From Psychrobacter cryohalolentis K5 (GTDB lineage: Bacteria; Pseudomonadota; Gammaproteobacteria; Pseudomonadales; Moraxellaceae): a DNA stretch of 32,000 nt. Each line of letters begins with the position of its first letter. Position 1 is the stretch's first letter. A program made the translations under genes and the position numbers. The notes beneath the pieces were generated by a model. It was not told the origin of the DNA and did no database searches. It saw nothing but the letters and a program-made list of their open reading frames with translations. Location: the NCBI RefSeq assembly GCF_000013905.1, contig NC_007969.1, positions 1,590,001 to 1,622,000 of the forward strand, in the 5' to 3' direction. Below are positions 50 to 19,004 of the stretch, in pieces.

Positions 50-1552
50 TCAATAGGCGACAAATAAATCCATAAATTCGTTTACTGGTGTTTGCTCTAA
101 CCGCTGTTGGTCGCTACACAATGCAAAAATCTCTGTACAGCGACTGTCGATAAACCGCGTGGCAAGACTGGCACGGAACTTTGCCTCCAATATCGGCAAA
201 CCCTCAGTACGGCGGCGTTTATGACCGATAGGGTATTCAATCGCTACCTTATCGGTACTACTGCCATCTTTAAAGAATACCTGTATCGCATTGGCAATCG
301 AGCGCTTGCTTGGATCATGATAGTCTTTTGAATAACCGGCATCTTCTTCAACGACCATCTTATGACGCAGACCATCAATCAAAATATGATGCTCGGCATG
401 ATAATCATCTTCATAGTTTTCAGCCATCAAATCACCGGTGAGTAAAGCCACTGCGACCATATATTGCAAACAATGATCGCGATCTGCAGGATTGGCCAGC
501 GTCCCTTCCTTTGAGATGATCCGAATAGCAGACTCATGAGTCGTTAGGATGATTTTTTCAATGTCTTCCATGCGGTCATCAATACGTGGATGCAAGATAA
601 CGGCCGCCTCACAAGCCGTTTGCGCATGGAACTCGGCAGGGAAGCTTATCTTAAATAAGATATTCTCCATCACATAGCTGCCAAACTCGCGCTGGAAGGT
701 AAAGCACCGCTCGTTTTCAGGCTTAAGCGCCAAATCCTTATTAGTATGGCTAAACAGCACATCATAAAAGCCCCATTGCGGCGCTGTCAATGCAGATGGA
801 ATGCCCATCTCGCCGCGGCGCGTGATATCGACCAAACGTACGGCTCGACTGGTCGCATCCCCTGCAGCCCATGATTTGCGACTACCAGCATTGGGTGCAT
901 GACGATAGGTACGTAGCGCTTGACCATCGACGATAGCTTGAGAGATGGCAGCCATGATACGCTCATGTGGCAGTTTATAAAGTTTGGCAACGACAGCGGT
1001 CGATGCCAACTTCACTAAAAATACATGATCAAGACCCACACGATTAAAGGAGTTGTCTAATGCCAACACCCCTTGAATCTCATGTGCCATAATCATAGCT
1101 TCTAGTACGTCTTTCATAATAAGAGGTGCATGCCCCTGACTGACGTTTTGCTGGCTGATATAATCCGCCACTGCCAAAATCGCCCCTAAATTGTCAGAGG
1201 GGTGACCCCATTCGGCAGCGAGCCATGTATCATTGTAATCAAGCCAGCGCACGATACAGCCAATGTCAAAGGCAGCTTTAATAGGGTCTAGTCGATAGGA
1301 GGTGCCGGGGACACGCGCGCCATTAGGAGTAATTTGATCGGCGCAATCAGGACCTAAATGCTTGGTACATTCAGGGAAACGTAATGCCAGTAGTCCGCAG
1401 CCAAGCGTATCCATCAGGCAGTAGCGAGCAGTATTCCAAGCATCAGCGCTATTGGGTGAGTCGTTATCTATAGAGTAATTGAGTACATAATCGGCGATTT
1501 TTTCAATCTCGCTATCATACTCCGGTCGTACATTGCTTTCCACAGTAGACAT
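50..1552 (-). CDS. prpD: 2-methylcitrate dehydratase (MmgE/PrpD family)
   Basis: 500 aa. The N-terminus (NVRPEYDSEI..IADYVLNY, CLMDTLGCG, RVPGT, DPIKAAFDIGCIVRWLDYNDTWLAAEWGHPSDNLG) is near-colinear with E. coli PrpD as I remember it. GGAAGAGG Shine-Dalgarno lies upstream of the ATG at 1552. Sits in a prp locus. Confidence 0.9.
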   Translation of the reverse strand: MSTVESNVRPEYDSEIEKIADYVLNYSIDNDSPNSADAWNTARYCLMDTLGCGLLALRFPECTKHLGPDCADQITPNGARVPGTSYRLDPIKAAFDIGCIVRWLDYNDTWLAAEWGHPSDNLGAILAVADYISQQNVSQGHAPLIMKDVLEAMIMAHEIQGVLALDNSFNRVGLDHVFLVKLASTAVVAKLYKLPHERIMAAISQAIVDGQALRTYRHAPNAGSRKSWAAGDATSRAVRLVDITRRGEMGIPSALTAPQWGFYDVLFSHTNKDLALKPENERCFTFQREFGSYVMENILFKISFPAEFHAQTACEAAVILHPRIDDRMEDIEKIILTTHESAIRIISKEGTLANPADRDHCLQYMVAVALLTGDLMAENYEDDYHAEHHILIDGLRHKMVVEEDAGYSKDYHDPSKRSIANAIQVFFKDGSSTDKVAIEYPIGHKRRRTEGLPILEAKFRASLATRFIDSRCTEIFALCSDQQRLEQTPVNEFMDLFVAY

Positions 1553-1693
1553 AATCGTTACCTCTTCCTTGAGTCAGATATATAAGTGACTTATCAATCC
1601 TATTACGAATCAATAAACCTGCTATCAAAAATAGCATACTCACAATCTAACCACAGTGAAGTAGTGTAAGACCTGCCTTGATTGGAAAAATCT

Positions 1694-2290
1694 TTAGACC
1701 ATCAAATACAGTAAACCAATAATAAATAACACTGCTAATATCAATAGCAAAAAGCTAAGAATACTGCTTGTCGTACCTGAGCTTTCTCTTTTTACTTTGA
1801 CCTTTTTAATAATAGGTAGCACCATGATGACATGCTCAATACCGTCTTCAAGATAATGCTCGCCTTCAGGGATAAACCCAAGAGATTGGTAAAAGTTTAA
1901 TAGATAAGTCTGGGCTGAGATGATGATAGGTTTTTTACCGTATTTTTTACGGCAATATTTGATAGCTTCTAGCATCATTTGACGGGCGACACCATCACCG
2001 CGATGTGCTGCTAAAACCAGCACTCTACCAATCGATGGGATAGGACCTGATGGGGTTACGGCAGATTTTTTGGTATTAAAAACAGGCGGAATAATGCGGC
2101 AATAGCCAATCAGCTGCTCGTTTTGGTGCGCGACCAGATGTAAGCAATCAAAATCGACCTCATCCATGTCTTGATAAGGGCAATTTTGCTCAACCACAAA
2201 CACTTGCGAGCGCGCTTTTAAAATATGATACAGATCAACGGAGGTTAATTCATCAAAGGTTTTTATCGAAATTTCACAAGTCATAATCAC
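1694..2290 (-). CDS. ElaA-like GNAT N-acetyltransferase with a C-terminal transmembrane tail
   Basis: 198 aa. It has an ElaA-type N-terminus (F.ELT..DLY.ILK.R..VFVVEQNCPY.D.D) and a GNAT acetyl-CoA loop (RVLVLAAHRGDGVARQMM). A basic patch (KKVKVKR) precedes a hydrophobic C-terminal helix (ILSFLLLILAVLFIIGLLYLMV). Confidence 0.75.
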   Translation of the reverse strand: MIMTCEISIKTFDELTSVDLYHILKARSQVFVVEQNCPYQDMDEVDFDCLHLVAHQNEQLIGYCRIIPPVFNTKKSAVTPSGPIPSIGRVLVLAAHRGDGVARQMMLEAIKYCRKKYGKKPIIISAQTYLLNFYQSLGFIPEGEHYLEDGIEHVIMVLPIIKKVKVKRESSGTTSSILSFLLLILAVLFIIGLLYLMV

Positions 2291-2367
2291 ATAGCTTCTA
2301 ACGATTTAAAGGATAATCAAAAATAGGATGCAGCAAAGAGTGAGCATTATAACGATTTCATACCGCA

Positions 2368-4221
2368 TTAACTATTCAAGGTTTGACTGATTTTATCTAA
2401 GTTCAGGCTATCTGACATGGCACTGAATATTTCAAAATACTTGCCGCCTTTATGGTAAAGCTCTTCATGAGTGCCGGTCTCGACCACGCGCCCGTCTTCT
2501 ATCACTACTAAGTCATCGGCATCAATGATTTGGGCAATATTGTGCGACACCATAATCACAGTACGGTCTTTCTTAATAAGATCTAAGCTTTTTTTGACCT
2601 GTTGACTGGCAATAGCGTCTAGGCTGGCCGTTGGTTCATCCAAAAACACAATAGGCGGATCCTTTAAGAACATCCTTGCTAGCGCAATACGTTGCTGCTG
2701 TCCACCTGATAGGGATTTTGCGGTACTCTCATAGCCTTTGGATAACGACATGATTTGCTCATGAATAGAGGCTTTTTTTGCTGCAATCACAATATCATCG
2801 TCACTAGCATTCATATCACCATAACGGATATTGTCGCCAATCGTACCTGAGAAAATATGATTGCTTTGTAGTACCAACCCGATATTTTGGCGAAGTTCAT
2901 GAGTATCGCAGTCAGCTAAGTCATACCCATCGAGACAGATACTGCCAGCATCAGGTGCATAAAACTTTACCAATAGGCTAATAATCGTACTCTTTCCTGC
3001 ACCGGAGAGGCCCACCAGTGCAGTAATACGATTGGGTTTGATGGTAAAGCTGACATCTTTTAGCGCTTGTGTGCCATTGGGATAAGTAAAATAAACGTTT
3101 TTAAGTTCGATGAGACCTTTTAAATCTTTACTGCTTCTGCCAGTGATGTTCTCAACTTGGCTTTCATCTTCTAAAATCTCAAAAAATCCTTCGGCATAGG
3201 TCAGCGCATTGTTGATTTGATCATAAATACGATGTAACTGTCGGATAGGAGCGGCGACGTTTTGGAATAGCATGACATGGAATAAAATCATCCCGATGGT
3301 CATTTGACCCTTTAATACAAAATAGGCGGTCAGTAAAATAATCACCACTACGCCGATTTGCTCAATAAAGGTCTTTACTGCATCATAAATAAAACCAATG
3401 CTACGAATACGCAGCTGATTGTCGGTCATCTCTTTTTGAATCTGTAAATGCTTCTCCGCCTCGATAGACTCGCGGACAAACGATTTTACGACACTGATAG
3501 AATTAATCAGCGAGATAACCATCCCGCTTTTGGCTTCTCTAAAGCCGCGCATCTGCCGGCGAAAACCTTGTAACCGCCGCGCTTGTCTTTGACTAATAAA
3601 AAAGTAAATCGGGATGATAATCAGACCAACCAAGCCTATCCAAAAATTGGTCGAAAACATAATAATCAGTGAAACGATGGCACTGGCAAACAGAGGTAGC
3701 ATATCGATAAAGAAGTTTTGCACCAAGCTTGTAAGACTACTAACGCCATAATCAATACGGGTTTGTAATTTACCGCTGTCGTTTTCGCTACTGGTATAAA
3801 ATGCCATACGATAGGTTAAGATGCGATCAATGATTTTTTGCGACAAATCACGTGAGAGATTGATACGAATTTTTTCACCAAAGAAGCGCTGTCCAAAAGA
3901 GATGAATATCGACAATATCTCTTTGGTTAAGAGTACCGCACTGATAATGGTCAGCATGCGCACGCCAGCTTCCCATGGATCGGCAAGGGTAGCGATTTCG
4001 GTCAAGGTATCAACGGCATAGCGCAACACAAAGGCATTAACTTGCGCGGTAAAGGAGCCAAGCACTGTTAATATCAAAGTGGCAATAATCAGTAAACGGT
4101 AAGGTTTTGCAAATACAGCAAGCTTTTTTAGGATATCCCACAACAGCGCCCGCCGTTCTTTTTTCTCGACCGGCGGTTTCTTGTCTAACTGTACGCGGCG
4201 TGGTTGGGGAGACGTTGGCAT
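2368..4221 (-). CDS. ABC transporter, fused permease/ATP-binding protein (type I exporter half-transporter)
   Basis: 617 aa. The N-terminal half has about six hydrophobic helices. Walker A is GLSGAGKST, the ABC signature is LSGGQQQR, Walker B is IVFLDEPT, and the H-loop is SHN. The ATG at 4221 lies only 32 nt after the stop of the upstream ORF and has no obvious SD. Confidence 0.9.
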   Translation of the reverse strand: MPTSPQPRRVQLDKKPPVEKKERRALLWDILKKLAVFAKPYRLLIIATLILTVLGSFTAQVNAFVLRYAVDTLTEIATLADPWEAGVRMLTIISAVLLTKEILSIFISFGQRFFGEKIRINLSRDLSQKIIDRILTYRMAFYTSSENDSGKLQTRIDYGVSSLTSLVQNFFIDMLPLFASAIVSLIIMFSTNFWIGLVGLIIIPIYFFISQRQARRLQGFRRQMRGFREAKSGMVISLINSISVVKSFVRESIEAEKHLQIQKEMTDNQLRIRSIGFIYDAVKTFIEQIGVVVIILLTAYFVLKGQMTIGMILFHVMLFQNVAAPIRQLHRIYDQINNALTYAEGFFEILEDESQVENITGRSSKDLKGLIELKNVYFTYPNGTQALKDVSFTIKPNRITALVGLSGAGKSTIISLLVKFYAPDAGSICLDGYDLADCDTHELRQNIGLVLQSNHIFSGTIGDNIRYGDMNASDDDIVIAAKKASIHEQIMSLSKGYESTAKSLSGGQQQRIALARMFLKDPPIVFLDEPTASLDAIASQQVKKSLDLIKKDRTVIMVSHNIAQIIDADDLVVIEDGRVVETGTHEELYHKGGKYFEIFSAMSDSLNLDKISQTLNS

Positions 4222-4253
4222 ATGTCAGTTTTATAATTTTATTTCAAATTTTT

Positions 4254-5018
4254 CTAAATTTCAGGATAATCGTCCAAAGGACTTGGACAAAGGGTTACGG
4301 TATCGTCTTCGAAGTGTATTGCTATCTTCCTTGCTATTAGCCTCATGCGATGGAAACAAATAATTGCTTCAATTAAAGTTACATCATCTGGATGAGCTTC
4401 ATGAGTCAGTGTATTCCTTCTATTTGAAATATCCTCATATGCTTTTACCCATTCTTCGGGTATAGGTTCTACACCAAGTTTATTCCAATTATTCACTCTG
4501 TTTCTTACGCCCATTCTCTCATGCTTATTTTGCTCACGTTCAAGAATTCCCGCAAGTAGCTTGTCTGAACCCCTATTAAGAATGTCTTTTAAAGAAACTT
4601 TCTCATCTAAAAAATTTTCCTTATTTTTATCTAATAATTTTTTATACAAGTCGAATTCATATGCTTCAAGAAGGCAGAAGTTGTATAGAATTATTTGAGT
4701 ACCTACTATATGTTCAATAGGTGTAAATTCTATCTCATGACCAAATTTTACACCGCCATGTTCTGAAATATCAGAGGATTCAGGTTCTCTAAAGATCAAA
4801 GAAATAGTTACACTTAATTCATTTGATAAATCATGTACTAACGGTAATAGTTTTTCATCTAAGTCTGGTCTATTAGCTGCAGTAGACAAACAAGGAGAGG
4901 TAGACCATGCTTCTTTATCCCAATTCATCATTTTTTTTGCTGAAATTGCTAAATCTGATGTTCTTACTGCCGAAAGTGTAAACAAATTCATCCGTTCAAT
5001 GACTTCATTAAATAACAT
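4254..5018 (-). CDS. Hypothetical protein with a C-terminal HEPN-type RNxxxH motif (candidate RNase, toxin or abortive-infection effector)
   Basis: 254-aa ORF with no competing ORF. R-R-N-T-L-T-H is encoded at 4401-4421, in a predicted helical C-terminal third. The gene is markedly AT-rich: hand counts on five 60-nt lines give 25-37% G+C, against 38-48% in sampled lines of the neighbouring genes. I recognise no family for the N-terminal 190 aa. Confidence 0.6.
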   Translation of the reverse strand: MLFNEVIERMNLFTLSAVRTSDLAISAKKMMNWDKEAWSTSPCLSTAANRPDLDEKLLPLVHDLSNELSVTISLIFREPESSDISEHGGVKFGHEIEFTPIEHIVGTQIILYNFCLLEAYEFDLYKKLLDKNKENFLDEKVSLKDILNRGSDKLLAGILEREQNKHERMGVRNRVNNWNKLGVEPIPEEWVKAYEDISNRRNTLTHEAHPDDVTLIEAIICFHRMRLIARKIAIHFEDDTVTLCPSPLDDYPEI

Positions 5019-5063
5019 ATGAGTTTAGCCTTTATTTTATTAATCTAGCTATTTGGGCTTCAA

Positions 5064-5072
5064 ATTATATCA
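5064..5072 (-). promoter_or_regulatory. Candidate extended -10 promoter (TGATATAAT) for the HEPN-motif ORF
   Basis: The minus strand reads TGaTATAAT, a perfect -10 with the TG extension. It lies about 46 nt upstream of the ATG at 5018 and directly after the prpF stop. No good -35 is present, and extended -10 promoters do not need one. Confidence 0.35.
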
Positions 5073-5091
5073 GAGAAAAATATCATCAAAA

Positions 5092-6333
5092 TTAAAACGC
5101 ATCTGCTGGCACAAACACTTCACCTATCATGATACGACGTGCTGAGCGACTCATCGAGACTTTTTTGGCTTGCCAGCGTCCATCGATCAGTTCGGTTTTT
5201 CCGCCGACGAGCAAGGTGCCAGAGGGATGACCAAAACGAACTTCACCTAACTCGCTACCGCCTGCTGCTTCATTAACCAATGTCCCTTGCGTCGTCGCTG
5301 CCGCAGCAATAGCAACCGCGGCCGTACCCATCATCGCATGATGCAATTGACCCATACTCATCGCCCGTACGACCAAATCAATATCATTGGCATCAACGGC
5401 TTTGCCACTTGAGGCGCTGTAACTTTGCGCAGGAGCTACCCATGCGATTTTTGGAATGTGCTGGCTGGTCTGTGCTTCAGAAACGTCTTTAAATAATCCC
5501 ATCGCCACACCGCCTGTGGCACGGATTTTCTCAAGCTTGGCAAGTAGCTCACCATCGCTATTGATGTCGCCTTGCAGCTCAGTACCGGTAAAGCCTAAAT
5601 CTTCTGCTTTCATAAAAATAGTTGGAATACCGGCACTGATAAAGGTTGCTTTGACACTATCAATATTTAGACCACAGCCTGAGACATCGAAGTCATCGAT
5701 TAGATTGTTTGTCGGGAACATGTCACTAGATGAATCAACTGGATCGATGAACTCAATTTTGACTTCAGCGGCTGGGAAGGTCACACCGTCTAATTCAAAG
5801 TCACCGGTTTCTTGCACTTGTACCTTGCCTTGCTCATCTTGATACACAGGCACGTGAGCGATAATGGTTTTACTGATATTCTCTTGCCAAATATGCACTT
5901 CACAGATGCCAGTATTCGCACTATTGGCGATCTTATCAGCATCGATCAGACCCATATTAATCGCACAAGCGCCAACTGAAGCGGTTAAGTTGCCACAGTT
6001 ACCCGCCCAATCAATCATAGGCTTGGCAATATTGACCTGTCCAAACAAATAGTTGACATCGTGGTCTGCTTTATCAGATTCAGACAATATTACTGTCTTA
6101 GAGGTGCTAGAGCTGCCATTGCCTAAACCGTCGATTTGCTTACCATAAGGATCTGGGCTACCGATGACACGTAGCAAAAATTGATCACGTGATTCACCAG
6201 CGACTTGGCAGCGCTCAGGTAAATCAGATAATTTAAAAAACGTGCCTTTGGAGGTACCGCCGCGCATATAGGTAGCAGGAACGGATAGTTGGGGGGCGAA
6301 AGAGGGTTTTGATTTAGAATTGGTTTGGGCCAC
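5092..6333 (-). CDS. prpF: 2-methylaconitate cis-trans isomerase PrpF
   Basis: 413 aa. Carries the PrpF hallmark VPATYMRGGTSKGTFF near the N-terminus. Partnered with an acnD-type aconitase in a prp locus. GTG start with AAAGGA upstream. Confidence 0.9.
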   Translation of the reverse strand: MAQTNSKSKPSFAPQLSVPATYMRGGTSKGTFFKLSDLPERCQVAGESRDQFLLRVIGSPDPYGKQIDGLGNGSSSTSKTVILSESDKADHDVNYLFGQVNIAKPMIDWAGNCGNLTASVGACAINMGLIDADKIANSANTGICEVHIWQENISKTIIAHVPVYQDEQGKVQVQETGDFELDGVTFPAAEVKIEFIDPVDSSSDMFPTNNLIDDFDVSGCGLNIDSVKATFISAGIPTIFMKAEDLGFTGTELQGDINSDGELLAKLEKIRATGGVAMGLFKDVSEAQTSQHIPKIAWVAPAQSYSASSGKAVDANDIDLVVRAMSMGQLHHAMMGTAAVAIAAAATTQGTLVNEAAGGSELGEVRFGHPSGTLLVGGKTELIDGRWQAKKVSMSRSARRIMIGEVFVPADAF

Positions 6334-6413
6334 TGTATTAAGTCCTTTTTCTATTGTTATAAGATTGGGTATGGTGCCATCAGCAAGTAAACACGAACGA
6401 CTAAGAGCGCTCG

Positions 6414-6674
6414 TTAATAATGATAGCGAGAAGAGATAATCGTCAGATAGTTATCATCGACGGCATATACCAACCGATTGGCATCATCGATGCGTCTTGA
6501 CCAAAATCCGGATAGATTTTCTTTTAGGGGTTCAGGTTTACCAATGCCTTCAAACGGATTACGCTTACATTCGGTGATGAGTTTGTTAACACGTTTGAGT
6601 GTTTTTTTGTCTTGTGTTTGCCAGTACAGATAGTCTTTCCACGCAGCATCTGTCCATGCTAGTTGCTCACTCAT
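6414..6674 (-). CDS. yoeB: Type II toxin YoeB/Txe (ribosome-dependent mRNA interferase)
   Basis: From the ATG at 6674 (MSEQLAWTDAAWKDYLYWQTQDKK...PFEGIGKPEPLKENLSGFWSRRID..RLVYAV...RYHY) it is colinear with E. coli YoeB, including the C-terminal RYHY. The track start at 6713 is a TTG overlapping the antitoxin stop. I prefer the internal ATG. Confidence 0.9.
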   Translation of the reverse strand: MSEQLAWTDAAWKDYLYWQTQDKKTLKRVNKLITECKRNPFEGIGKPEPLKENLSGFWSRRIDDANRLVYAVDDNYLTIISSRYHY

Positions 6675-6709
6675 TATTAGACCCTTTGCATTGATTAAAG
6701 CCTTTGAGT

Positions 6710-7036
6710 TCAAGCATTCTCAACGTCGCCATTCGTATGCTCATTGTCATCGCTGCTACCATCACTTTTATCACTGCCTTCTGCGGTATCAATTAGCTCA
6801 CGCGTAACAGTCTTGCCAGCTTTATATTGGGCAATAGATTCCGCTAAGTGCGCCGCATTGGCAGGAGATCTTAATAGATAGACGGTTTCCATCAGGCTAT
6901 TGTAATAATCAAGCGACATGACAACCGCATCATCAGCGTCACGACGGGTCACGATAGTGGCGTTGGCATCATCGTTTACCGTATCTAGGACGGACTTTAA
7001 GTGCTTTCTGGCTTCTGAAAAACTAATGACTCTCAC
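6710..7036 (-). CDS. yefM: Type II antitoxin YefM/Phd family with an acidic C-terminal extension
   Basis: VRVISFSEARKHL...VVMSLDYYNSLMETVYLLRSPANAAHL is colinear with E. coli YefM (MRTISYSEAR...). I place the start at GTG 7036 because GGAG (7043-7046) lies 6 nt upstream. The alternative ATG at 7048 has no SD and lies 5 nt from the operator. The C-terminus carries about 25 extra acidic residues. Confidence 0.85.
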   Translation of the reverse strand: MRVISFSEARKHLKSVLDTVNDDANATIVTRRDADDAVVMSLDYYNSLMETVYLLRSPANAAHLAESIAQYKAGKTVTRELIDTAEGSDKSDGSSDDNEHTNGDVENA

Positions 7037-7052
7037 GACATACTCCATAACT

Positions 7053-7098
7053 TGTACAATATATAGTACATATTACGCCATTAATTAAGTAAACTCAA
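7053..7098 (-). promoter_or_regulatory. yefM-yoeB promoter (-35 TTGAGT, 17 nt spacer, -10 TAATAT) with a paired TGTACA/AGTACA operator
   Basis: On the minus strand, the -35 is at 7093-7098 and the -10 at 7070-7075. GTAC cores sit at 7054-7057 and 7066-7069, 12 bp centre to centre, overlapping the -10 and predicted start site. This matches the remembered E. coli yefM-yoeB operator built from TGTACA core palindromes. Confidence 0.55.
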
Positions 7099-7155
7099 TA
7101 TTTAGCTACTATCTAATACTTAGGTATAAGTAAGAAGGCTCAGTGTGTAGAATGC

Positions 7156-7202
7156 AAAAGCAAATAAAAGCCGATGTCATATAAGGTTATACAACATCGG
7201 CT
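7156..7202 (-). terminator. Rho-independent terminator downstream of acnD
   Basis: A 9-bp stem, AGCCGATGT (7169-7177) with ACATCGGCT (7194-7202), begins 27 nt after the acnD stop. On the minus strand TTTATTTGCTTTT follows it. Confidence 0.55.
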
Positions 7203-7228
7203 CTTTGATTATTTCACACTCATGACAC

Positions 7229-9886
7229 TTACGCGATATCTAACGTGCCATCGATAAACTCTTTGGCAAAGCGCTGTAGCATCCCGCCTGCGTTATACAT
7301 TTTAACCTCATCAGCGGTATCTAAACGGCAAATGATAGGGGTTTCAGTCGTGCTACCATCAGCACGGTTAATCACCAGCGTCATCATGCCGCCAGCAGAA
7401 ACTTCGCCTGTGACATCAAAGACTTCCGTACCATCTATATTTAGGGTGTTCCGAGTCGTACCTTTTTCAAACTGCAAAGGTAGTGCGCCCATACCAACCA
7501 AGTTTTGACGATGAATACGTTCAAAATCTTCAGCGACCACCACCTCAACGCCTGCTAAACGTACACCTTTGGCAGCCCAGTCACGGCTTGAGCCTTGACC
7601 ATAGCCGTCACCTGCGATAATGATCAGCGGCTGCTCACGGTTCATATAGGTTTCGATTGCTTCCCACATACGCATAACTTGACCTTGTGGCTCAACCCTA
7701 GCAAGCGAACCTTGTATTACTTCACCTTTTTCATCACGTACCATTTCATTCAACAGCTTAGGGTTAGCAAATGTCGCACGCTGCGCAGTTAGATGGTCAC
7801 CGCGATGGGTCGCATAAGAGTTATAGTCCTCGCTTGGCAGACCCATGGTATCAAGGTACTCGCCAGCTGCTGAGTCGCCCAAAATCGCATTAGACGGTGA
7901 TAAATGGTCAGTGGTAATATTGTCACCTAATACCGCTAATGGACGCATACCTTTTAGCTTATTCATCGCTGCCATTTTGCCTTCCCAATAGGGTGGACGA
8001 CGAATATAAGTGGTCTGATCACGCCAGTTATATAGTGGACTGAGCGCTTTACCCGTATCTTTTTTGGCTTCATCAAACATCGGGATATACACGGCATTGA
8101 ACTGCTCAGGCTTCACGGCAGCAGCGACAATAGCATCGACTTCGTCATCATCAAACCAGATGTCTTTTAGATAAACGTCATTGCCATGTTGGTCTTTACC
8201 CAATGAGTCTTTTTCAATATCAAAGCGAATGTTACCGGCGATAGCATAAGCGATGACCAGTGGCGGTGATGCTAAGAACGCTTGCTTGGCATATGGGTGG
8301 ATACGACCATCAAAGTTACGGTTACCCGATAATACCGCAGTGGTGAACAGATCGTTATCGATGATTTCTTTTTCGATATCAGGATCAAGCGCGCCACTCA
8401 TACCATTACAAGTGGTACAAGCAAAGCCAACCACGTCAAAGCCGATTTCTTGTAGCTCAGGCATCAGACCCGCTTCTTCTAGGTACATTTTTACGGTTTT
8501 TGAACCGGGTGCTAATGACGATTTTACCCAAGGCTTACGCAATAAGCCCTTCTTATTAGCATTACGGGCGACAAGACCAGCAGCAACCATGTTGCGAGGA
8601 TTAGACGTATTGGTACAGCTGGTAATCGCGGCGATAATCACCGCGCCATCTGGCATTAGACCATCTTTTGGCTCTGGTAATTTATCACCCTCACCGTGAG
8701 CAATTCCTTTCGCAACCAAGTCTGTGGTTGAAACACGCGCATGCGGACGTGAAGGGCCTGCCATATTACGGACAACAGCGGACAAATCAAACTCAAGCAC
8801 ACGCGCGTATTCGGCTTTTTCCATACCATCAGCCCATAAACCGGTTTGCTTGGCATATTGCTCGACCAATTTGATTTGCGCTTCACTACGACCGGTTAAT
8901 CGTAAATAATCGATGGTTTGCTCATCAATATAGAACATCGCCGCGGTTGCACCATATTCTGGGGTCATGTTTGAGATAGATGCACGGTCACCAACGCTCA
9001 GTTGGCGCGCACCTTCACCGAAGAATTCAATATAAGTAGATACCACGCCTGCATCACGTAAGAATTCAGTCATAGCGAGTACCAAATCGGTACCAGTAAT
9101 GCCTCTTTGCAATTTACCAGTTAGCTTGACGCCAACGTAATCAGGGAGACGCATATAAGACGGGTTACCAAGCATGACGCTTTCCGCTTCAAGCCCGCCA
9201 ACACCAATTGAGATAACGCCTAAAGCATCAACCATCGGGGTATGGCTATCAGTACCAACCAAAGTATCGGCAAATGCCACTTGTTCACCGGCTTTATTTT
9301 GTACCACTTGCACAACCGGCGACATTTTTTCTAAGTTGATTTGGTGCATGATGCCGTTACCGGGCGGTACGACGTTGACGTTATCAAAGGCATACTGACA
9401 CCAGTTGATAAAGTGAAAACGGTCATCGTTACGGCGCTCTTCGATAGCACGGTTTTTCTCAAATGCATTTTCTTCAAAGCCTGCATGCTCAACAGCCAAT
9501 GAATGGTCAACAATCAATTGTGTTGGAACGATTGGATTCACTTTTGATGGGTCACCGCCTTGCTCAGCGATGGCGTCACGTAAACCGGCCAAATCAACAA
9601 ACGCGGTCTGACCTAGGATGTCATGACAAACGACGCGGGCAGGGTACCACGGAAAATCTAAATCTTGCTTGCCTTCGATATGTTGCTTGAGCGCTGCGGT
9701 TAAATCTTCTGGTGGGCAGCGGCGTACCAAGTTTTCACACAATACTTTTGAGCAGAACGGTAGCTTGTCATACGCGCCAGCTTCGATATTTTCGATGGCT
9801 TCACGGGTATCAAAGTAATATAAATCTGTGCCAGGTAATGGCTTTTTAAAGGGTTCATTCATCGGTTGTACAAGGGCGTTGTCCAT
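7229..9886 (-). CDS. acnD: Fe-S-dependent 2-methylcitrate dehydratase AcnD (aconitase A family)
   Basis: 885 aa. The N-terminus KKPLPGTDLYYFDTREA is AcnD-like. Aconitase Fe-S ligand regions are present (ITSCTNTSNP, FACTTCNG). Lies between prpC and prpF. AAGGTG SD before the ATG at 9886. Confidence 0.9.
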   Translation of the reverse strand: MDNALVQPMNEPFKKPLPGTDLYYFDTREAIENIEAGAYDKLPFCSKVLCENLVRRCPPEDLTAALKQHIEGKQDLDFPWYPARVVCHDILGQTAFVDLAGLRDAIAEQGGDPSKVNPIVPTQLIVDHSLAVEHAGFEENAFEKNRAIEERRNDDRFHFINWCQYAFDNVNVVPPGNGIMHQINLEKMSPVVQVVQNKAGEQVAFADTLVGTDSHTPMVDALGVISIGVGGLEAESVMLGNPSYMRLPDYVGVKLTGKLQRGITGTDLVLAMTEFLRDAGVVSTYIEFFGEGARQLSVGDRASISNMTPEYGATAAMFYIDEQTIDYLRLTGRSEAQIKLVEQYAKQTGLWADGMEKAEYARVLEFDLSAVVRNMAGPSRPHARVSTTDLVAKGIAHGEGDKLPEPKDGLMPDGAVIIAAITSCTNTSNPRNMVAAGLVARNANKKGLLRKPWVKSSLAPGSKTVKMYLEEAGLMPELQEIGFDVVGFACTTCNGMSGALDPDIEKEIIDNDLFTTAVLSGNRNFDGRIHPYAKQAFLASPPLVIAYAIAGNIRFDIEKDSLGKDQHGNDVYLKDIWFDDDEVDAIVAAAVKPEQFNAVYIPMFDEAKKDTGKALSPLYNWRDQTTYIRRPPYWEGKMAAMNKLKGMRPLAVLGDNITTDHLSPSNAILGDSAAGEYLDTMGLPSEDYNSYATHRGDHLTAQRATFANPKLLNEMVRDEKGEVIQGSLARVEPQGQVMRMWEAIETYMNREQPLIIIAGDGYGQGSSRDWAAKGVRLAGVEVVVAEDFERIHRQNLVGMGALPLQFEKGTTRNTLNIDGTEVFDVTGEVSAGGMMTLVINRADGSTTETPIICRLDTADEVKMYNAGGMLQRFAKEFIDGTLDIA

Positions 9887-10067
9887 AAGTCACCTTTAGC
9901 TGTTGGGTGGTTTAAATTCAAAAAATAGTCATTCTTTTAGCAAAATCATCAGTGAAATGAGACGTTAGAAGAGGGCTTTGCTAAAAAAATATGCTTAAAA
10001 AGACAGTGAGGTTATTAAGAAAAGGTTTAACTGCTAAATTGTTGTATATGTCTAGCGGTTAAGCCGG

Positions 10068-10097
10068 CTATCTCGCATAAGTATTTATGCGAGATAG
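10068..10097 (-). other. Perfect 12-bp stem / 6-nt loop hairpin in the prpC-acnD spacer
   Basis: CTATCTCGCATA-agtatt-TATGCGAGATAG, 15 nt after the prpC stop. No U-tract follows on the transcribed strand, so it is not a canonical terminator. Confidence 0.4.
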
Positions 10098-10111
10098 TAA
10101 ATACATATGGA

Positions 10112-11239
10112 TTAACGCGCGCTCATCTCTGGTACTGGGCGCAGCTCTTCGCCAGTATATTCCGCACTTGGGCGAATGATACGGTTGTTCGCACGTTGCT
10201 CAAACACGTGTGCTGCCCAGCCTGTTAGACGCGAGCAAACAAAGATTGGCGTAAACAGTTTGGTTGGAATGCCCATAAAGTGATAGGCAGACGCATGGAA
10301 AAAGTCAGCATTACAGAAGAGTTTTTTCTCGCGCCACATCACTTCTTCACAGCGTACTGATACTGGGTATAGCACTTCATCACCAACATCTGCTGCCAGT
10401 TTTTCAGCCCAACCTTTAATTACAACATTACGTGGATCTGATTCGCTATAGATAGCATGACCAAAGCCCATAATCTTATCTTTACGCGCCAGCATTGCCA
10501 TCATCTCAGACTCTGCTTGATCAGGAGAGGTGAATCCTTCAATCATATCCATCGCCGCTTCATTGGCGCCGCCATGTAAATGACCGCGTAATGAGCCAAT
10601 CGCGCCAGTGATACAAGAATGAATGTCAGACAGGGTAGACGCACAGACGCGAGCGGTAAAGGTTGAGGCGTTAAACTCATGCTCAGCATAAAGAATCAGT
10701 GATACGTTCATTACCTTAGTATGTAGCTCGTTTGGTTTTTCACCTTTTAGCAGATGTAAGAAATGACCGCCAATGGTATCGTCATCAGTTTCAGTTTCGA
10801 TACGCACGTTGTCGTGGGTAAAGCGATACCAGTAATTGATGATTGATGGGAAAACCGCCAGCATACGGTCGGTTTTATCGTTCTCTTGTGAGAAGTCAGT
10901 TTCCATCTCAAGGTTACCAAGCATCGAGCAACCGGTACGTAATACGTCCATCGGATGGGCGTCCGCAGGAATACGCTCAAGCACATCTTTTAATGCTTGT
11001 GGTAAGCCACGTAAACCTTTCAATTTAGTTTGATAAGCATCAAGCTCACTTTGGGTAGGTAAGTTGCCGTATAGCAACATATAAGCCACTTCCTCAAAGA
11101 TGCACTTGTCAGCCAGCTCTGATACGTCATAACCGCGATAAGTCAGACCTGAGCCTGATTTGCCAACGGTAGACAAAGCGGTCTTACCTGCTACTTGACC
11201 ACGTAAACCTGCGCCCGAAAGTTCTTTTTGTGCTGCCAT
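10112..11239 (-). CDS. prpC: 2-methylcitrate synthase
   Basis: Citrate-synthase signature MGFGHAIYSESDPR is present, and the gene follows prpB. I place the start at ATG 11239 (MAAQKELSG), which has AAGGAA 7 nt upstream. The track start at 11293 adds 18 aa without an SD. Confidence 0.9.
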   Translation of the reverse strand: MAAQKELSGAGLRGQVAGKTALSTVGKSGSGLTYRGYDVSELADKCIFEEVAYMLLYGNLPTQSELDAYQTKLKGLRGLPQALKDVLERIPADAHPMDVLRTGCSMLGNLEMETDFSQENDKTDRMLAVFPSIINYWYRFTHDNVRIETETDDDTIGGHFLHLLKGEKPNELHTKVMNVSLILYAEHEFNASTFTARVCASTLSDIHSCITGAIGSLRGHLHGGANEAAMDMIEGFTSPDQAESEMMAMLARKDKIMGFGHAIYSESDPRNVVIKGWAEKLAADVGDEVLYPVSVRCEEVMWREKKLFCNADFFHASAYHFMGIPTKLFTPIFVCSRLTGWAAHVFEQRANNRIIRPSAEYTGEELRPVPEMSAR

Positions 11240-11354
11240 GATAAATTCCTTTTGTTGGTAGCTTGTGTTGGATAAAAGATAAAGATGCTGCAAATATCAA
11301 ATACTGCGTTGACATCCTCATTGATAGGAAAACCAACGCTTTTAACCGCTAAGA

Positions 11355-12245
11355 CTACTTATTATCAGCAAACAGTTTGTCTAGCGTTTGTTCAAACTCA
11401 TGATAGTTTAAGAAGTCATACAGCTCCATACGGGTTTGCATGGTGTCGACAACTTTGTCTTGCGTGCCATCATCAAGCAGATGCTGATATACGTTTAATG
11501 CCGCTTTGTTCATCGCACGGAAGGCTGATAATGGATAAAGCACCATATCAACACCTACCGCATATAACTGCTCGGTGGTATATAGATCGGTCTGACCAAA
11601 TTCGGTCATATTAGCTAGGACTGGAATATCAAGCACATCGGTAAACTTACGGTACATCTCAATATCCGTTAGTGCTTCGGCAAAAATCATATCAGCACCA
11701 GCTTCTTGAAAAGCAACCGCGCGCTCAACCGCTGCATCAAGACCTTCGACAGATAGGGCGTCGGTACGTGCCATCACCACAAAATCTTTGTCCGTCTTGG
11801 CATCAAGTGCCGCTTTTAGGCGATCAACCATTTCTGAGATACTAACAATTTCTTTATTTGGACGATGACCACAACGCTTTTGCGCCACTTGGTCTTCGAT
11901 ATGAACCGCCGCCACACCGGCTTTTTCCATTTTACGAATGGTTTGAGCAATATTAAATGCACCACCAAAACCGGTGTCAATATCAACCAATAATGGCGTA
12001 TCAACCGCATCGGTAATACGGCGCGCATCTTCTAAGACGTTATCAAGGCTAGTCATACCCAAATCTGGCAAGCCAAATGAGGCATTGGCCACGCCAGCAC
12101 CAGAGAGATATAAGGCTTGATGACCAACTTGAGTTGCCATCATTGCTGTATAAGCGTTAATTGCGCCAGCAATCTGTAGCGGTTGATTATTATCATTTTT
12201 TTGTTTCATTGCACTGCGAAAGCGAGCGCCAGCTGATAGGGTCAT
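11355..12245 (-). CDS. prpB: 2-methylisocitrate lyase
   Basis: 296 aa. Carries the isocitrate-lyase/PEP-mutase signature KRCGH ([14 protein letters not shown]). First gene of the prp block. AAGGA SD. Confidence 0.92.
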
Positions 12246-12309
12246 GTCGTGGTCCTTACGTGGAGGGAAGATCTTGTCGTTATCATTCGCGATTCAATCG
12301 TTGTGCTTG

Positions 12310-12337
12310 ATTATAACCAATTATTCAGGACTGCAAA
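12310..12337 (-). promoter_or_regulatory. Candidate sigma-70 promoter for prpB (-35 TTTGCA, 16 nt spacer, -10 TATAAT)
   Basis: On the minus strand, TATAAT is at 12310-12315 and TTTGCA at 12332-12337, about 65 nt upstream of the prpB ATG. It lies downstream of the terminator of the preceding gene. Confidence 0.4.
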
Positions 12338-12534
12338 GCGGGATTTTCATTCAACTGTTAATATAAATTAAATTAACAAATTAAAAATATTAATACTATT
12401 TAATTAATGGATAGTGCTATCCAATAATTAGAGGTTTGTATCCATTAGTATTCATAACGTATCAAACGCTGCATTTCTCCTAATTAAATATTTACATCTG
12501 GTTACAATTATATCTATAAGCGTTTTATCGTTGT

Positions 12535-12573
12535 CTACAAAAAAGCCCTCTTAGTCTTGCTAAAAGGGCTTTT
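12535..12573 (-). terminator. Rho-independent terminator after the NRAMP-like gene
   Basis: Stem AAAAGCCCT (12541-12549) pairs with AGGGCTTTT (12565-12573). The minus-strand transcript ends AGGGCTTTTTTG. It lies about 45 nt after the stop at 12618. Confidence 0.65.
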
Positions 12574-12617
12574 ACTCTATCAAGTCTATTATTAGCTAGA
12601 TTGGCTAACCTTTATTT

Positions 12618-13904
12618 TTAACCAATAATACCTGCAAGGCTAGCTAGGAATAACAAGGTAAAGCCACCTAAGAATACAAGCCCTGCAATCGAATAGGCGT
12701 TCATACCGGCTGATAGCTTTTTATGGTTTTTCACGAGCGAATAGTTTAACCAACCAAAGATAGGCGCGGATATAAAGGCGGATATCATCGCAAACTTCAG
12801 CATAGCGCCTAATTGTCCGGCAAAGAAGCTGATAATCAAAAGACCGCCACCGATAGCATAGGTGGTCCAAAAGGCGATTTGCTTTTTATTAATCTCGTCT
12901 TCACCTTTTAGTAAGCGCCAGCATTCGGCGTTGGCACGTCCATAGCCATCCGCACAGGTAATAGTGGTGCCAAACATACACATAAAGGCGACAAAGGCGA
13001 CCAGTAGTCTTGACCATTCACCGATAGTGGCGGTATACATATTGATAAGCTGATCAATATAAGCGACACCTGCGGTTTGAATCTCTTGACCTGAGCCGTA
13101 TTGTACGAAAACGCCCAACGCTAAAAAGAACAAGGCTAAAATAGCGGAAACTAAGAAACCGACATTAAAATCCAGTAAGCCCTGACGGTGAGTGGTATTG
13201 TCCGCTTTTCTCTTGGCTGATGTCCACATCGAGGTGATGGCAGCGAACTCAAGTGGTGCTGGCATCCAACCCATAAGAGCCACAATAAACCCTAAAGTCG
13301 CCAAGTTCCAAGGAGAGGCAGGGACAAAATCCGCCACCATAACCGTCGGCTTACCAGCAGCAATCATCACCGCTAACACGGTTGCAGATACGAGCGCAAT
13401 CATAATCCACTTGGTCACGCCGTCAAGCAATTTATAATGACCAGCAATCAGAAAAAACCAACATACAGCAACGATAATGACAGCTAAGGCAATACTTGAT
13501 AGTCCTACAGATGCGGGAAGCATAAAGCCCAATATCACTGCCGCAAGCAATGTCACAGCCCCCGTACTAATCACCGCCGATAAAATAGATAGGATAAAAT
13601 AAATCCAGAGATAAGCTTTTGAGCGTTTGGCATAGCCTGCGATTAAGCTCTCGCCAGTGTCGTAGACATAATCGGTGGCAAAGCGGAAGAACGGATACTT
13701 AAAGACGTTGGCTAATATAATCATAATCGCCAGCTGCCAGCCATATAACGCGCCAGCCTGTGTCGATGAAATCAGATGCGAGCCGCCAATAGCAGCAGTC
13801 GCCATCAGAATACCGGGACCAAAGATTCGCCAGCTAAAGCCTTCTTGCTGCGCGGAGAGAGTATCGCCTGTGGCGCTTGGGTTATTGAGTGGTTGTGTGG
13901 TCAT
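12618..13904 (-). CDS. NRAMP-superfamily membrane transporter with a non-canonical TM1/TM6 motif
   Basis: About 11 hydrophobic helices. GPGILMATAAIGGSHLISSTQAGALYGWQL resembles the NRAMP TM1 region, but GGSH replaces the DPGN metal-site motif. The TM6 region reads GWMPAPLEF rather than the usual MPH. Start moved to ATG 13904 (GAGG 5 nt upstream). The track start at 13940 is a GTG without an SD. Confidence 0.7.
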   Translation of the reverse strand: MTTQPLNNPSATGDTLSAQQEGFSWRIFGPGILMATAAIGGSHLISSTQAGALYGWQLAIMIILANVFKYPFFRFATDYVYDTGESLIAGYAKRSKAYLWIYFILSILSAVISTGAVTLLAAVILGFMLPASVGLSSIALAVIIVAVCWFFLIAGHYKLLDGVTKWIMIALVSATVLAVMIAAGKPTVMVADFVPASPWNLATLGFIVALMGWMPAPLEFAAITSMWTSAKRKADNTTHRQGLLDFNVGFLVSAILALFFLALGVFVQYGSGQEIQTAGVAYIDQLINMYTATIGEWSRLLVAFVAFMCMFGTTITCADGYGRANAECWRLLKGEDEINKKQIAFWTTYAIGGGLLIISFFAGQLGAMLKFAMISAFISAPIFGWLNYSLVKNHKKLSAGMNAYSIAGLVFLGGFTLLFLASLAGIIG

Positions 13905-18341: not shown

Positions 18342-19004
18342 TTAGCCTTGTAGCTGGTCAATCATACCTTGGTATTTGTCTTTTTTCTCAGCAATCTTAC
18401 TACGCTCTTCTTCTGCATTGTCTACCGATTCTTCAGAGTCTGCCACTTTCTTATCAAAAGCTTCTAACTCGGCAGTTTTGGCATCCAAAAGTCTGTTAAG
18501 CATAATAGCAACCGCTTTTTCAGAAACGTCAAGCGTCATATTAGAAGCTTCAGACGTAAAATCCTCTTTAAGCTTAGCAGCCCATTGATAGATATTAGCT
18601 ATCGTCGCACTATGCTTGTCCTCATGCTTGTCTTCATTTTCAGAATCAGACTTATCCTCTTCGTCAGATTTCGCTTCTTTTTTGTCAGAAATAAAGTCAT
18701 CTTTGAGCTTAGAAGCCCATTGATAGATGTTCGCTATCGTCGTACTGTGCTTATCTTCTTTGGCAGAATTGTCATCTTGATCGTCTTTATTGGACTCATC
18801 ATCCTTGCCAGACTTAGTTTCTTCATCAACCTCATAGTCTTTGTCAGCATTGTAATCTTCAAAATCACCGTCTTCATAAACGACAGTATCACCTTTTACT
18901 ACTTCTACGCCTGTTACCGCATCATTTGAAGGCGTTGTCGCTGCGCTCTCAAGAGACTCTAAGGCATTTTTAATGTTATCGTTATTAGTAGACTTGTCAG
19001 ACAT
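18342..19004 (-). CDS. Highly acidic hypothetical protein with two internal repeats and a coiled-coil-like C-terminus
   Basis: 220 aa and rich in D/E/K. EDKHSTTIANIYQWASKLKDDF (18693-18758) and EDKHSATIANIYQWAAKLKEDF (18558-18623) repeat with a 45-aa period. The gene has its own terminator. I recognise no family. Confidence 0.7.
   Translation of the reverse strand: MSDKSTNNDNIKNALESLESAATTPSNDAVTGVEVVKGDTVVYEDGDFEDYNADKDYEVDEETKSGKDDESNKDDQDDNSAKEDKHSTTIANIYQWASKLKDDFISDKKEAKSDEEDKSDSENEDKHEDKHSATIANIYQWAAKLKEDFTSEASNMTLDVSEKAVAIMLNRLLDAKTAELEAFDKKVADSEESVDNAEEERSKIAEKKDKYQGMIDQLQG

What the first reader, a model, noticed from the sequence alone, without database searches (positions are those of the whole stretch)
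4254..5018. Low-GC orphan gene with a HEPN RNxxxH motif wedged into the propionate operon
The ORF is the clearest compositional outlier in the window. Hand counts give about 25-37% G+C, against about 38-48% in neighbouring genes. It sits between prpF and the rest of the locus.

Its C-terminal third encodes R-R-N-T-L-T-H (4401-4421). That is the R-N-x-x-x-H form of the Rx4-6H catalytic motif of HEPN RNases, found in Abi proteins, type II toxins, Cas13/Csm6 and RiboL-PSP. I recognise nothing in the N-terminal 190 aa.

There is no adjacent MNT-type antitoxin or other obvious partner. It could be a single-gene abortive-infection or RNase effector with a novel sensor domain. A short motif alone is weak evidence.
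Basis: partly seen in the sequence, partly recalled or inferred. Interest (0 to 1): 0.7.

Follow-up and report, generated by a model that had tools for sequence, protein, structure and literature searches.

The report
New standalone HEPN-like RNase gene
A low-GC gene wedged into a Psychrobacter propionate operon belongs to a small, unannotated family that looks like a new branch of the HEPN RNase superfamily and moves between strains, so it is probably a toxin or anti-phage gene, though its activity is untested.

Summary
ORF 4254-5018 (-) encodes 254 aa. It has the lowest GC in the window (33.7%; GC3 23.5%, z = -4.9) and carries R-R-N-T-L-T-H at 4401-4421.

It is not an orphan. About 45 clusters at 50% identity exist, in Psychrobacter, Moraxella, an Acinetobacter plasmid, Leptospira and a Thermotogota MAG. 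R201 is invariant and N202 and H206 are at least 90% conserved down to about 20% identity. E118 and R174 are also invariant.

A confident AlphaFold model (pLDDT 87) puts the motif at the end of a helix, before a loop and a final helix, as in HEPN domains. The only recurring family hits are HEPN families, all below curated cut-offs. Fold searches were inconclusive.

The gene is under purifying selection (dN/dS about 0.09). It also looks horizontally exchanged: dS is 0.08 against 1.2-2.2 for the flanking genes. It sits in different operon spacers in different strains. Distant relatives lie beside toxin-antitoxin (TA) modules and defence genes (TIR, OLD/Gabija-like, LmuA-like).

Best reading: a new standalone HEPN family, probably an RNase toxin or abortive-infection effector. 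Function is untested.

The parts
4254..5018 (-). CDS of the 254-aa HEPN-like protein (ATG 5018-5016, stop 4256-4254)
   Evidence: ORF listing and sequence. Homologues 97-19% identical. dN/dS about 0.09 against the 88%-identical copy in L024.
4401..4421 (-). R200-R201-N202-T-L-T-H206, the predicted catalytic Rx4H motif with a polar N after the R
   Evidence: R201 is invariant; N202 and H206 are conserved in at least 90% of 31-32 diverse homologues. The motif lies at the C-terminal end of model helix 188-206.
4926..5012 (-). N-terminal long helix (residues 3-31, pLDDT 96-97), a candidate HEPN helix 1; carries the conserved D22-L23-A24
   Evidence: AF2 model from alignment A3; conservation. Assignment as helix 1 is inference, because no coordinates were available.
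4719..4925 (-). Residues 32-100: mostly non-helical, lower-confidence segment with conserved P42 and S65
   Evidence: pLDDT 58-81.
4626..4718 (-). Long helix, residues 101-131, with the LLExYE motif. The invariant E118 (4665-4667) is a candidate for the conserved acidic residue of HEPN helix 2
   Evidence: E118 invariant, L117 and E121 at least 90% conserved. Helix. Start of the RiboL-PSP-HEPN sub-threshold matches in relatives.
4458..4625 (-). Residues 132-187: helical insert between the acidic-residue helix and the motif helix. Carries Y166 and the invariant R174 (4497-4499). Variable in the family
   Evidence: Absent from the 198-aa Acinetobacter plasmid homologue and shortened in P0035 and P0039-P0044. 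HEPN domains typically carry variable inserts between helices 2 and 3 (PMC3710099).
4401..4457 (-). Helix, residues 188-206 (candidate HEPN helix 3), ending in the RNxxxH motif
4314..4376 (-). Helix, residues 215-235 (candidate HEPN helix 4), after an 8-residue loop
5019..5091 (-). 73-nt AT-rich spacer between the prpF stop and the ORF start. It holds promoter-like hexamers (TTGAAG-18-TAAAAT, 5063-5034), a count not above chance
   Evidence: No terminator-like site was found between prpF, the ORF and the ABC gene.
4222..4253 (-). 32-nt spacer to the ABC exporter start. In the 88%-identical copies the ORF stop overlaps the ABC start
4220..5060 (.). Block that is 93-100% identical to Psychrobacter proteolyticus L001, while the flanks are 72-88% identical: the recently exchanged unit
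   Evidence: Sliding identity plot. dS is 0.08 for the ORF against 1.17-2.2 for acnD, prpF and ABC.

Best explanation
The ORF encodes a standalone member of a previously unmodelled family of the HEPN (Rx4-6H) superfamily. Its nearest relatives, below threshold, are in the RiboL-PSP-HEPN / Abi2-Swt1 clade.

**Likely mechanism (inferred).** Like other HEPN enzymes, it would dimerise so that R201, N202 and H206, helped by E118 and possibly R174, form a metal-independent RNase site. That site would cut RNA and leave 2',3'-cyclic phosphate ends. The variable 132-187 insert and the 32-100 segment may hold the enzyme inactive until a trigger arrives, such as phage infection or stress. Activation would give growth arrest or abortive infection.

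**Nature of the gene.** It is a horizontally exchanged accessory cargo gene lodged in an intergenic spacer of the prp operon. It is not a step of propionate catabolism.

**Shown:**
- It is a real gene under purifying selection.
- The motif is conserved.
- The motif sits at a helix end in the model.
- Only HEPN families give weak hits.
- Its position varies between strains.
- It was recently exchanged.
- Distant relatives have defence or TA neighbours.

**Inferred:**
- The four-helix HEPN packing.
- Dimerisation.
- RNase activity.
- Toxicity.
- A phage trigger.
For: **Motif and residues.** R201 is invariant. N202 and H206 are at least 90% conserved, and E118 and R174 are invariant, in homologues down to about 19-25% identity.

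**Model.** The AF2 model has pLDDT 86.9 and pTM 0.84. It is all-helical, with the motif at the end of helix 188-206, then a loop, then helix 215-235. This matches the HEPN description in PMC3710099: motif at the end of helix 3, polar residue after the R, acidic residue in helix 2, variable insert between helices 2 and 3. The insert is indeed missing or shortened in some relatives.

**Family hits.**
- Pfam hits among 32 relatives are dominated by HEPN families: RiboL-PSP-HEPN in 4 members, Swt1 in 3, Apea in 2, Cthe2314 in 1 and HepT in 1.
- The RiboL-PSP-HEPN hits reach E = 1.8e-5 and 5.3e-5 and span about 130 residues.
- The best NCBIfam hit is HepT_toxin, E = 2.6e-4.
- PADLOC gives weak CARF_HEPN hits.
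- IMG names one member YutE/DUF86.

**Selection.** dN/dS is about 0.09.

**Mobility.**
- Against L001, the ORF has dS 0.08 while its flanks have 1.2-2.2, and there is a sharp 97-100% identity block.
- The gene lies after prpF here and in L001 and L023-26.
- It lies between acnD and prpF in L017 and L029.
- It lies after acnD, with no prpF, in Moraxella.
- A frameshifted copy lies between sbcD and sbcC in L020.
- It is rare: 5 loci among 185,579 species genomes.

**Neighbours of distant members.**
- Two TIR genes.
- An OLD/GajA/AriA-like ATPase-TOPRIM, plus RhuM and YhcG.
- An LmuA/DUF4297-like NTPase.
- TA pairs.
Against: **Sequence searches.** The window protein gives no hit in Pfam, NCBIfam, PADLOC or PDB sequences, even at E <= 10. 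Every HEPN hit among relatives is below the curated gathering score, for example 25.1 against 28.4 bits. Neither the family consensus nor the insert-less members hit HEPN models.

**Context.** No homologue was found in phage or viral collections, or on plasmids for the window protein itself. In the window, the neighbourhood is metabolic, not a defence island.

**Regulation and function.** There is no antitoxin or partner, so how a constitutive toxin would be tolerated is unexplained. There are no functional data.
Confidence: 0.55

Rival explanations
1. The protein is a functional accessory or regulator of the propionate (2-methylcitrate) operon. It could be a HEPN-derived regulator or RNA-processing factor, analogous to MtlR in mannitol operons, transcribed with prp genes and acting on the operon mRNA or on AcnD/PrpF.
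For: Moraxellaceae copies recur next to acnD or prpF in three arrangements across two genera. No terminator-like site separates prpF, the ORF and the ABC gene. In the 88%-identical copies the stop overlaps the ABC start. In Moraxella osloensis it occupies the slot where prpF normally follows acnD. MtlR is a precedent for a HEPN protein embedded in a catabolic operon (PMC3710099).
Against: - The gene is rare: 5 loci in 185,579 species genomes.
- L017 has an empty prpF-ABC junction, and the window has none between acnD and prpF.
- A 70%-identical copy sits between sbcD and sbcC and is frameshifted.
- More distant relatives are never in prp loci.
- Its low GC and a dS over tenfold lower than the flanks indicate foreign cargo.
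- An intact catalytic R-N-H argues for an enzyme, not a degenerate regulator.
Confidence: 0.12
2. It is the toxin of an addiction-type module whose antitoxin was not recognised, such as a small RNA, a tiny ORF, or autoinhibition by its own insert. Its main effect would be selfish stabilisation of the DNA it sits in, rather than phage defence.
For: HEPN toxins are common in TA systems, for example HepT-MNT (one search hit; PMC3710099). Relatives sit among TA pairs: PhdYefM, RelE/ParE-NadS, HigB-ImmA, Gp49-HTH and DUF4160/DUF2442. A frameshifted copy fits toxin decay. P0014 loci share a conserved downstream 152-aa ORF.
Against: No partner gene is conserved across the family. There are no repeats, tandem arrays or Rfam RNAs near the window gene. 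The spacers are only 73 and 32 nt. The yefM-yoeB pair nearby is a complete module of its own and is absent from L017 and L029.
Confidence: 0.15
3. It is not a HEPN enzyme. It would be a helical protein of another, unknown fold and function, in which the conserved R-N-x-x-x-H serves another role such as ligand or nucleic-acid binding. The weak HEPN hits would then be motif-driven false positives.
For: There is no supra-threshold HEPN match for any member. Foldseek gave no significant fold match despite many HEPN structures in the PDB. Several weak hits cover only about 20-50 residues around the motif.
Against: The best hits span about 115-135 residues, not just the motif. They remain significant after correcting for about 45 sequences scanned: 1.8e-5, 5.3e-5 and 2.6e-4. 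HEPN families are the only ones to recur, apart from Kbp-5 in two members. The motif position, the polar residue after the R, the upstream invariant acidic residue and the variable insert all match the published HEPN definition. The top weak Foldseek hits include HepT, AF0298, SO_3166 and Csm6.
Confidence: 0.12

Closest known systems
RiboL-PSP-HEPN (Pfam PF18735; Abi2/Swt1 clade of HEPN, Anantharaman et al. 2013, PMC3710099)
   Same: Best database match for relatives: P0022 25.1 bits, P0046 23.6 bits, P0057 19.0 and P0026 15.4, with the matches covering profile positions between 23 and 189 of 191. These align to the stretch equivalent to window residues ~100-240. It has the conserved R-polar-x3-H motif and is bacterial and sporadic.
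   Different: All scores are below the 28.4-bit gathering cut-off, and the window protein scores nothing. There is no fusion to an endoribonuclease L-PSP domain and no ParB operon. There is an extra conserved ~100-residue N-terminal part.
AbiD/AbiF (Abi_2) single-gene abortive-infection HEPN proteins of Lactococcus
   Same: A standalone HEPN-type protein without a partner gene. It is low-GC accessory cargo in the same HEPN clade as RiboL-PSP-HEPN according to PMC3710099. This is the functional model I favour.
   Different: There was no Abi_2 or PADLOC Abi model hit. A phage-resistance phenotype is untested. No copy was found in the phage or viral collections; the one plasmid copy found is a distant Acinetobacter family member, not an Abi_2 gene.
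HepT toxins of HepT-MNT (type VII) toxin-antitoxin systems (DUF86/YutE)
   Same: A small helical HEPN RNase toxin. There are weak hits to HepT models: NCBIfam NF047751 at E = 2.6e-4 and Pfam PF01934 at E = 0.067. IMG labels P0033 as YutE. The top (non-significant) Foldseek hit is HepT 7ae6.
   Different: No adjacent MNT nucleotidyltransferase was found in any locus examined. The protein is about twice the size, with an N-terminal extension and a large insert. The motif is RNxLTH, without the HepT-type RX4HXY tyrosine.
MtlR (HEPN-family regulator embedded in mannitol operons)
   Same: A HEPN-type protein sitting inside a catabolic operon (PMC3710099).
   Different: MtlR often loses the catalytic motif and is a stable operon component. 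This gene keeps the motif, is rare, changes position and is horizontally exchanged.
Integron-cassette HEPN (PDB 3jrt)
   Same: A single-gene mobile HEPN cargo in Gammaproteobacteria (PMC3710099).
   Different: No attC-like inverted repeat or integron context was found. Homology between copies starts at the ATG and ends inside the ORF.

Membership tests
HEPN superfamily | Conserved Rx4-6H motif with a polar residue (N/D/H) right after the R | tested here: met
   R201-N202-T-L-T-H206. R201 is invariant; N202 and H206 are at least 90% conserved in 31-32 homologues down to about 19% identity.
HEPN superfamily | [quoted passage not shown] | tested here: met
   AF2 model (pLDDT 86.9): helix 188-206 ends in the motif, then loop 207-214, then helix 215-235. 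Definition from PMC3710099.
HEPN superfamily | Second conserved acidic residue in an upstream helix (helix 2), near the motif | tested here: inconclusive
   E118 is invariant in helix 101-131. It is not in the typical Ex3[KR] form, and its 3D proximity could not be checked because no coordinates were available.
HEPN superfamily | Variable insert between helices 2 and 3 | tested here: met
   Residues 132-187 are absent from the Acinetobacter plasmid homologue and shortened in P0035 and P0039-44.
HEPN superfamily | Four-helix up-down bundle superposable on solved HEPN structures | tested here: inconclusive
HEPN superfamily | Significant profile match to a curated HEPN model | tested here: not met
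   The window protein has 0 hits at E <= 10. Relatives reach E = 1.8e-5 (25.1 bits) but stay below the gathering scores.
HEPN superfamily | Metal-independent RNase activity that depends on the R and H | not testable with these tools
   Needs biochemistry.
RiboL-PSP-HEPN (PF18735) | Score at or above the Pfam gathering cut-off (28.4 bits); fusion to L-PSP or an operon with ParB | tested here: not met
   The best relative scores 25.1 bits and the window protein scores none. No L-PSP or ParB was seen in any locus.
HepT-MNT type VII TA | Adjacent MNT nucleotidyltransferase antitoxin | tested here: not met
   Neighbours are prpF and an ABC exporter. No nucleotidyltransferase was found in the 12 arrangements examined in about 20 loci.
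Known anti-phage systems (PADLOC-DB 2.0) | Match to a defence-system protein model | tested here: not met
   No hit for the window protein at E <= 10. Only weak CARF_HEPN hits (E = 0.003) for two relatives.
Abortive-infection gene | Phage-resistance phenotype with death or arrest of the infected cell | not testable with these tools
   There is only guilt by association: TIR, OLD/GajA-like and LmuA-like neighbours of distant relatives.
prp (2-methylcitrate) operon component | Regular presence and fixed position in prp operons | tested here: not met
   The pattern scan found relatives in only 5 loci among 185,579 species genomes; how many prp operons lack the gene was not counted. The position varies. 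One copy lies in sbcDC, and distant relatives lie elsewhere.

The most novel reading that the evidence does not exclude
This would be a mobile single-gene HEPN toxin family that specialises in colonising intergenic spacers inside conserved operons (prp, sbcDC). There it spreads between species by recombination in the conserved flanks. It would be co-transcribed with the host operon, coupling a self-contained sensor-RNase to the cell's metabolic state, with no partner protein.
Probability: 0.15. Interest if true: 0.65.

Novelty: new variant of a known kind. Interest (0 to 1): 0.42.

Why it matters
If confirmed, this adds a new partner-less family to the HEPN RNase superfamily. No Pfam, NCBIfam or PADLOC model tested here detects it, so annotation based on those libraries would leave it unnamed. 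It also shows defence- or toxin-type cargo hiding inside a housekeeping catabolic operon rather than in a defence island, with a clear signature of recent horizontal exchange. That matters for defence-system discovery methods that rely on island context. The family is small, the kind is well known, and the function is untested, so the value is moderate.

Tried and rejected
**Direct searches with the window protein.** Pfam, NCBIfam, PADLOC and PDB-sequence searches found nothing at E <= 10.

**Profile and manipulated queries.**
- The A3 profile against PDB sequences gave only chance-level hits.
- PHROGs on 31 members gave nothing meaningful.
- The family consensus, an insert-deleted construct and the insert-less members against Pfam gave no HEPN hit.
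- A second word-indexed homology search with the A3 profile added only P0057, whose N-terminal extension looks like a miscalled start.

**Fold searches.**
- Foldseek against PDB with both models, and against BFVD, found nothing significant.

**Phage, plasmid and viral collections.**
- tblastn of the window protein against phages and plasmids gave no match.
- P0022 against plasmids gave none.
- The viral-contig scan gave none.

**Searches for a cassette or a partner.**
- There were no credible flanking direct or inverted repeats.
- There was no Rfam family.
- DNA homology between copies starts at the ATG.
- Neighbours of relatives tested with the family HMM are not paralogues.

**Other.**
- I considered and rejected yefM-yoeB as the partner. 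It is a complete module and is absent where the ORF sits in L017 and L029.
- I considered and rejected the ABC exporter and GNAT as partners. prpF separates them from the ORF in L017 and L029, and they are absent in Moraxella.

Full report
**Observation**

The window has a 254-codon ORF at 4254-5018 on the minus strand.

Composition was measured three ways:
- GC is 0.337, against a mean of 0.446 (sd 0.027) for the other 21 ORFs of the window.
- GC3 is 0.235, against 0.429 (z = -4.9).
- Only 0.7% of 765-nt windows are as AT-rich, and the window's minimum lies inside the ORF.

Pfam scans give the minus-strand gene order: prpB, prpC, acnD, yefM, yoeB, prpF, this ORF, an ABC exporter, a GNAT acetyltransferase, prpD.

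**The gene is real, and it is not an orphan**

The word-indexed search found 12 clusters, 63-97% identical over the full-length members, mostly Psychrobacter. The exhaustive profile search of 1.84 billion representatives found 45 proteins at E <= 1e-3, most of them 240-275 aa.

Named sources include Psychrobacter, Moraxella osloensis/Enhydrobacter, Leptospira and a Thermotogota MAG. A 198-aa member lies on an Acinetobacter plasmid.

Against the 88%-identical copy, dN is 0.062 and dS is 0.67, so dN/dS is about 0.09. The protein is under purifying selection.

**Is it HEPN?**

*Direct searches.* The window protein found nothing in Pfam, NCBIfam, PADLOC or PDB sequences, even at E <= 10.

*Conservation.* In alignments of 31-32 homologues down to about 19% identity:
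- The invariant columns are E118, R174 and R201.
- P42, L117, E121, Y166, N202 and H206 are at least 90% conserved in both alignments (S65 in the 31-sequence one only), giving the consensus S-x-R-R-N-x-L-T-H-E.

*Model.* An AlphaFold2 model built on that alignment is confident (pLDDT 86.9, pTM 0.84) and all-helical. Its helices are 3-31, 101-131, a helical segment 133-181, 188-206 and 215-235.

*Published HEPN definition (PMC3710099).*
- The Rx4-6H motif lies at the end of helix 3, entering the loop to helix 4.
- The residue after the R is polar.
- A second conserved acidic residue lies in helix 2.
- A variable insert lies between helices 2 and 3.

*How this protein compares.*
- The motif ends helix 188-206.
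- N follows R.
- E118 is invariant in the preceding long helix.
- The 132-187 segment is missing from the Acinetobacter homologue and shortened in one subgroup.

*Family scans of relatives.* HEPN models dominate the weak hits; the only other model hit by more than one member is Kbp-5 (2 members).
- RiboL-PSP-HEPN in four members of alignment A2, plus P0057 (E = 1.8e-5, 5.3e-5, 1.4e-3 and 0.017), over about 115-135 residues.
- Swt1-like, Apea-like, Cthe2314-like and HepT-like HEPN.
- NCBIfam HepT_toxin at E = 2.6e-4.
- PADLOC CARF_HEPN at E = 0.003.
- IMG labels one member YutE/DUF86.

I therefore rate HEPN-superfamily membership as likely, about 0.85, on sequence evidence. The fold test is inconclusive, and the family is new at the level of curated models. 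The high pTM suggests the protein is modelled as one compact fold. That last point is inference, because I could not inspect coordinates.

**Genomic behaviour**

The gene's position differs between lineages.

| Loci | Identity to window protein | Position |
|---|---|---|
| Window, P. proteolyticus L001/L002, L023-L026 | 88-98% | Between prpF and the ABC exporter |
| L017, L029 | 63-66% | Between acnD and prpF, the spacer where the window has yefM-yoeB; their prpF-ABC spacer is empty |
| Moraxella osloensis / Enhydrobacter | 50% | Directly after acnD, no prpF nearby, then convergent serS |
| Psychrobacter sp. FDAARGOS_221 (L020) | 70% | Between sbcD and sbcC; frameshifted at residue 188/189, just before the catalytic helix |

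- DNA homology between copies at different sites starts at the ATG and ends inside the ORF. No flanking repeats were found.
- Against L001, the ORF has dS = 0.08, while acnD, prpF and the ABC gene have dS = 1.37, 1.17 and 2.2.
- A sliding plot shows a 97-100% identity block coinciding with the ORF, inside flanks of 72-88%.
- The ORF has lower GC than its locus in 10 of 11 contexts.
- Only 5 loci turned up among 185,579 species-representative genomes.

Together these show a rare accessory gene that is exchanged horizontally and lands in spacers within operons. The most likely route is recombination in the conserved flanking genes, which is inference.

**Context of distant relatives**

None is in a prp locus.
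- One follows two TIR-domain genes (phmmer E = 1e-45 to AbTIR).
- One neighbours an OLD/GajA/AriA-like ATPase-TOPRIM protein, with RhuM and YhcG genes.
- One neighbours a 1311-aa protein with an LmuA/DUF4297-like N-terminus.
- Others sit among PhdYefM, DUF4160/DUF2442, Gp49-HTH, RelE/ParE-NadS and HigB-ImmA modules.

No partner gene is conserved across the family. No copies were found in phage or viral collections. On plasmids, the window protein itself found none, and the only plasmid copy is the Acinetobacter one above.

**Mechanism**

The best-supported reading is a partner-less HEPN RNase acting as a toxin or abortive-infection-type effector. By analogy with characterised HEPN enzymes (established knowledge, summarised in PMC3710099):
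- It would dimerise to build a composite, metal-independent active site.
- That site would use R201, N202 and H206, helped by E118.
- It would cleave RNA, leaving 2',3'-cyclic phosphate ends.
- The variable insert and the 32-100 segment are candidates for autoinhibition or trigger sensing.

All of this is inferred, and no activity was tested. No terminator-like site separates prpF, the ORF and the ABC gene. In some strains the stop overlaps the ABC start. The gene may therefore be transcribed with the operon, and how a toxin is tolerated there is unexplained.

**Rivals**
- A prp-operon accessory or MtlR-like regulator. This is supported only by the recurrent prp location. Rarity, variable position, the sbcDC copy and the exchange signature argue against it.
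- A toxin with an unrecognised antitoxin.
- A non-HEPN helical protein.

**Verdict**

The gene is best filed as a new family-level variant within the HEPN superfamily, nearest to the RiboL-PSP-HEPN / Abi2-Swt1 clade. It behaves as mobile cargo embedded in a metabolic operon. Interest is moderate: the kind is well known, but the family is unmodelled, standalone, and hidden outside defence islands.

Noticed in passing
window 6414-7048 (-), with hairpin 7166-7205: A complete yefM-yoeB (Phd/YefM antitoxin, YoeB toxin) pair sits between acnD and prpF, just after an 18-bp-stem terminator-like hairpin that follows acnD. In L017 and L029 the same spacer holds the HEPN-like gene instead, so this spacer is a hot spot for selfish cargo.
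   Followed up: partly
window 1694-4221 (-): An ABC exporter (617 aa) and a GNAT acetyltransferase with a hydrophobic C-terminal tail lie between prpF and prpD. They are conserved there in the Psychrobacter prp loci examined that extend that far (L017, L023, L024, L029). Their role in propionate catabolism is unclear.
   Followed up: partly
window 50-12245 (-): The prp locus encodes both routes for 2-methylcitrate dehydration: AcnD/PrpF and a PrpD (MmgE/PrpD) homologue.
   Followed up: no
L004/L005 5091-10780: In Moraxella osloensis/Enhydrobacter the order is prpB-prpC-acnD, then the HEPN-like gene, then convergent serS. No prpF is next to acnD. Whether prpF lies elsewhere in the genome was not checked.
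   Followed up: no
L020 10001-10764: In Psychrobacter sp. FDAARGOS_221, a 70%-identical copy lies between sbcD and sbcC. It is split by a frameshift at residue 188/189, immediately before the catalytic helix.
   Followed up: yes
L006 1131-1589, L007 1821-2279, L008 906-1364: The Thermotogota-type family member P0014 is always followed by the same 152-aa ORF of unknown function. This could be a lineage-specific partner. It has no PADLOC hit.
   Followed up: partly
L023 3193-3846 and 8207-8608: One Psychrobacter MAG has a DUF2059 gene inserted between prpB and prpC. It keeps yefM, but no intact yoeB was called.
   Followed up: no
window 18342-19004 (-): A highly acidic 220-aa ORF (GC 0.395) contains an internal duplicated segment (HSTTIANIYQWASKLKDDF / HSATIANIYQWAAKLKEDF). 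Function unknown.
   Followed up: no
window 12251-12750: This is the second-lowest GC stretch in the window (0.334). It covers the spacer upstream of prpB and the 3' end of an Nramp-like transporter gene, with a divergently placed LysR-type regulator further on (14212-15237).
   Followed up: no
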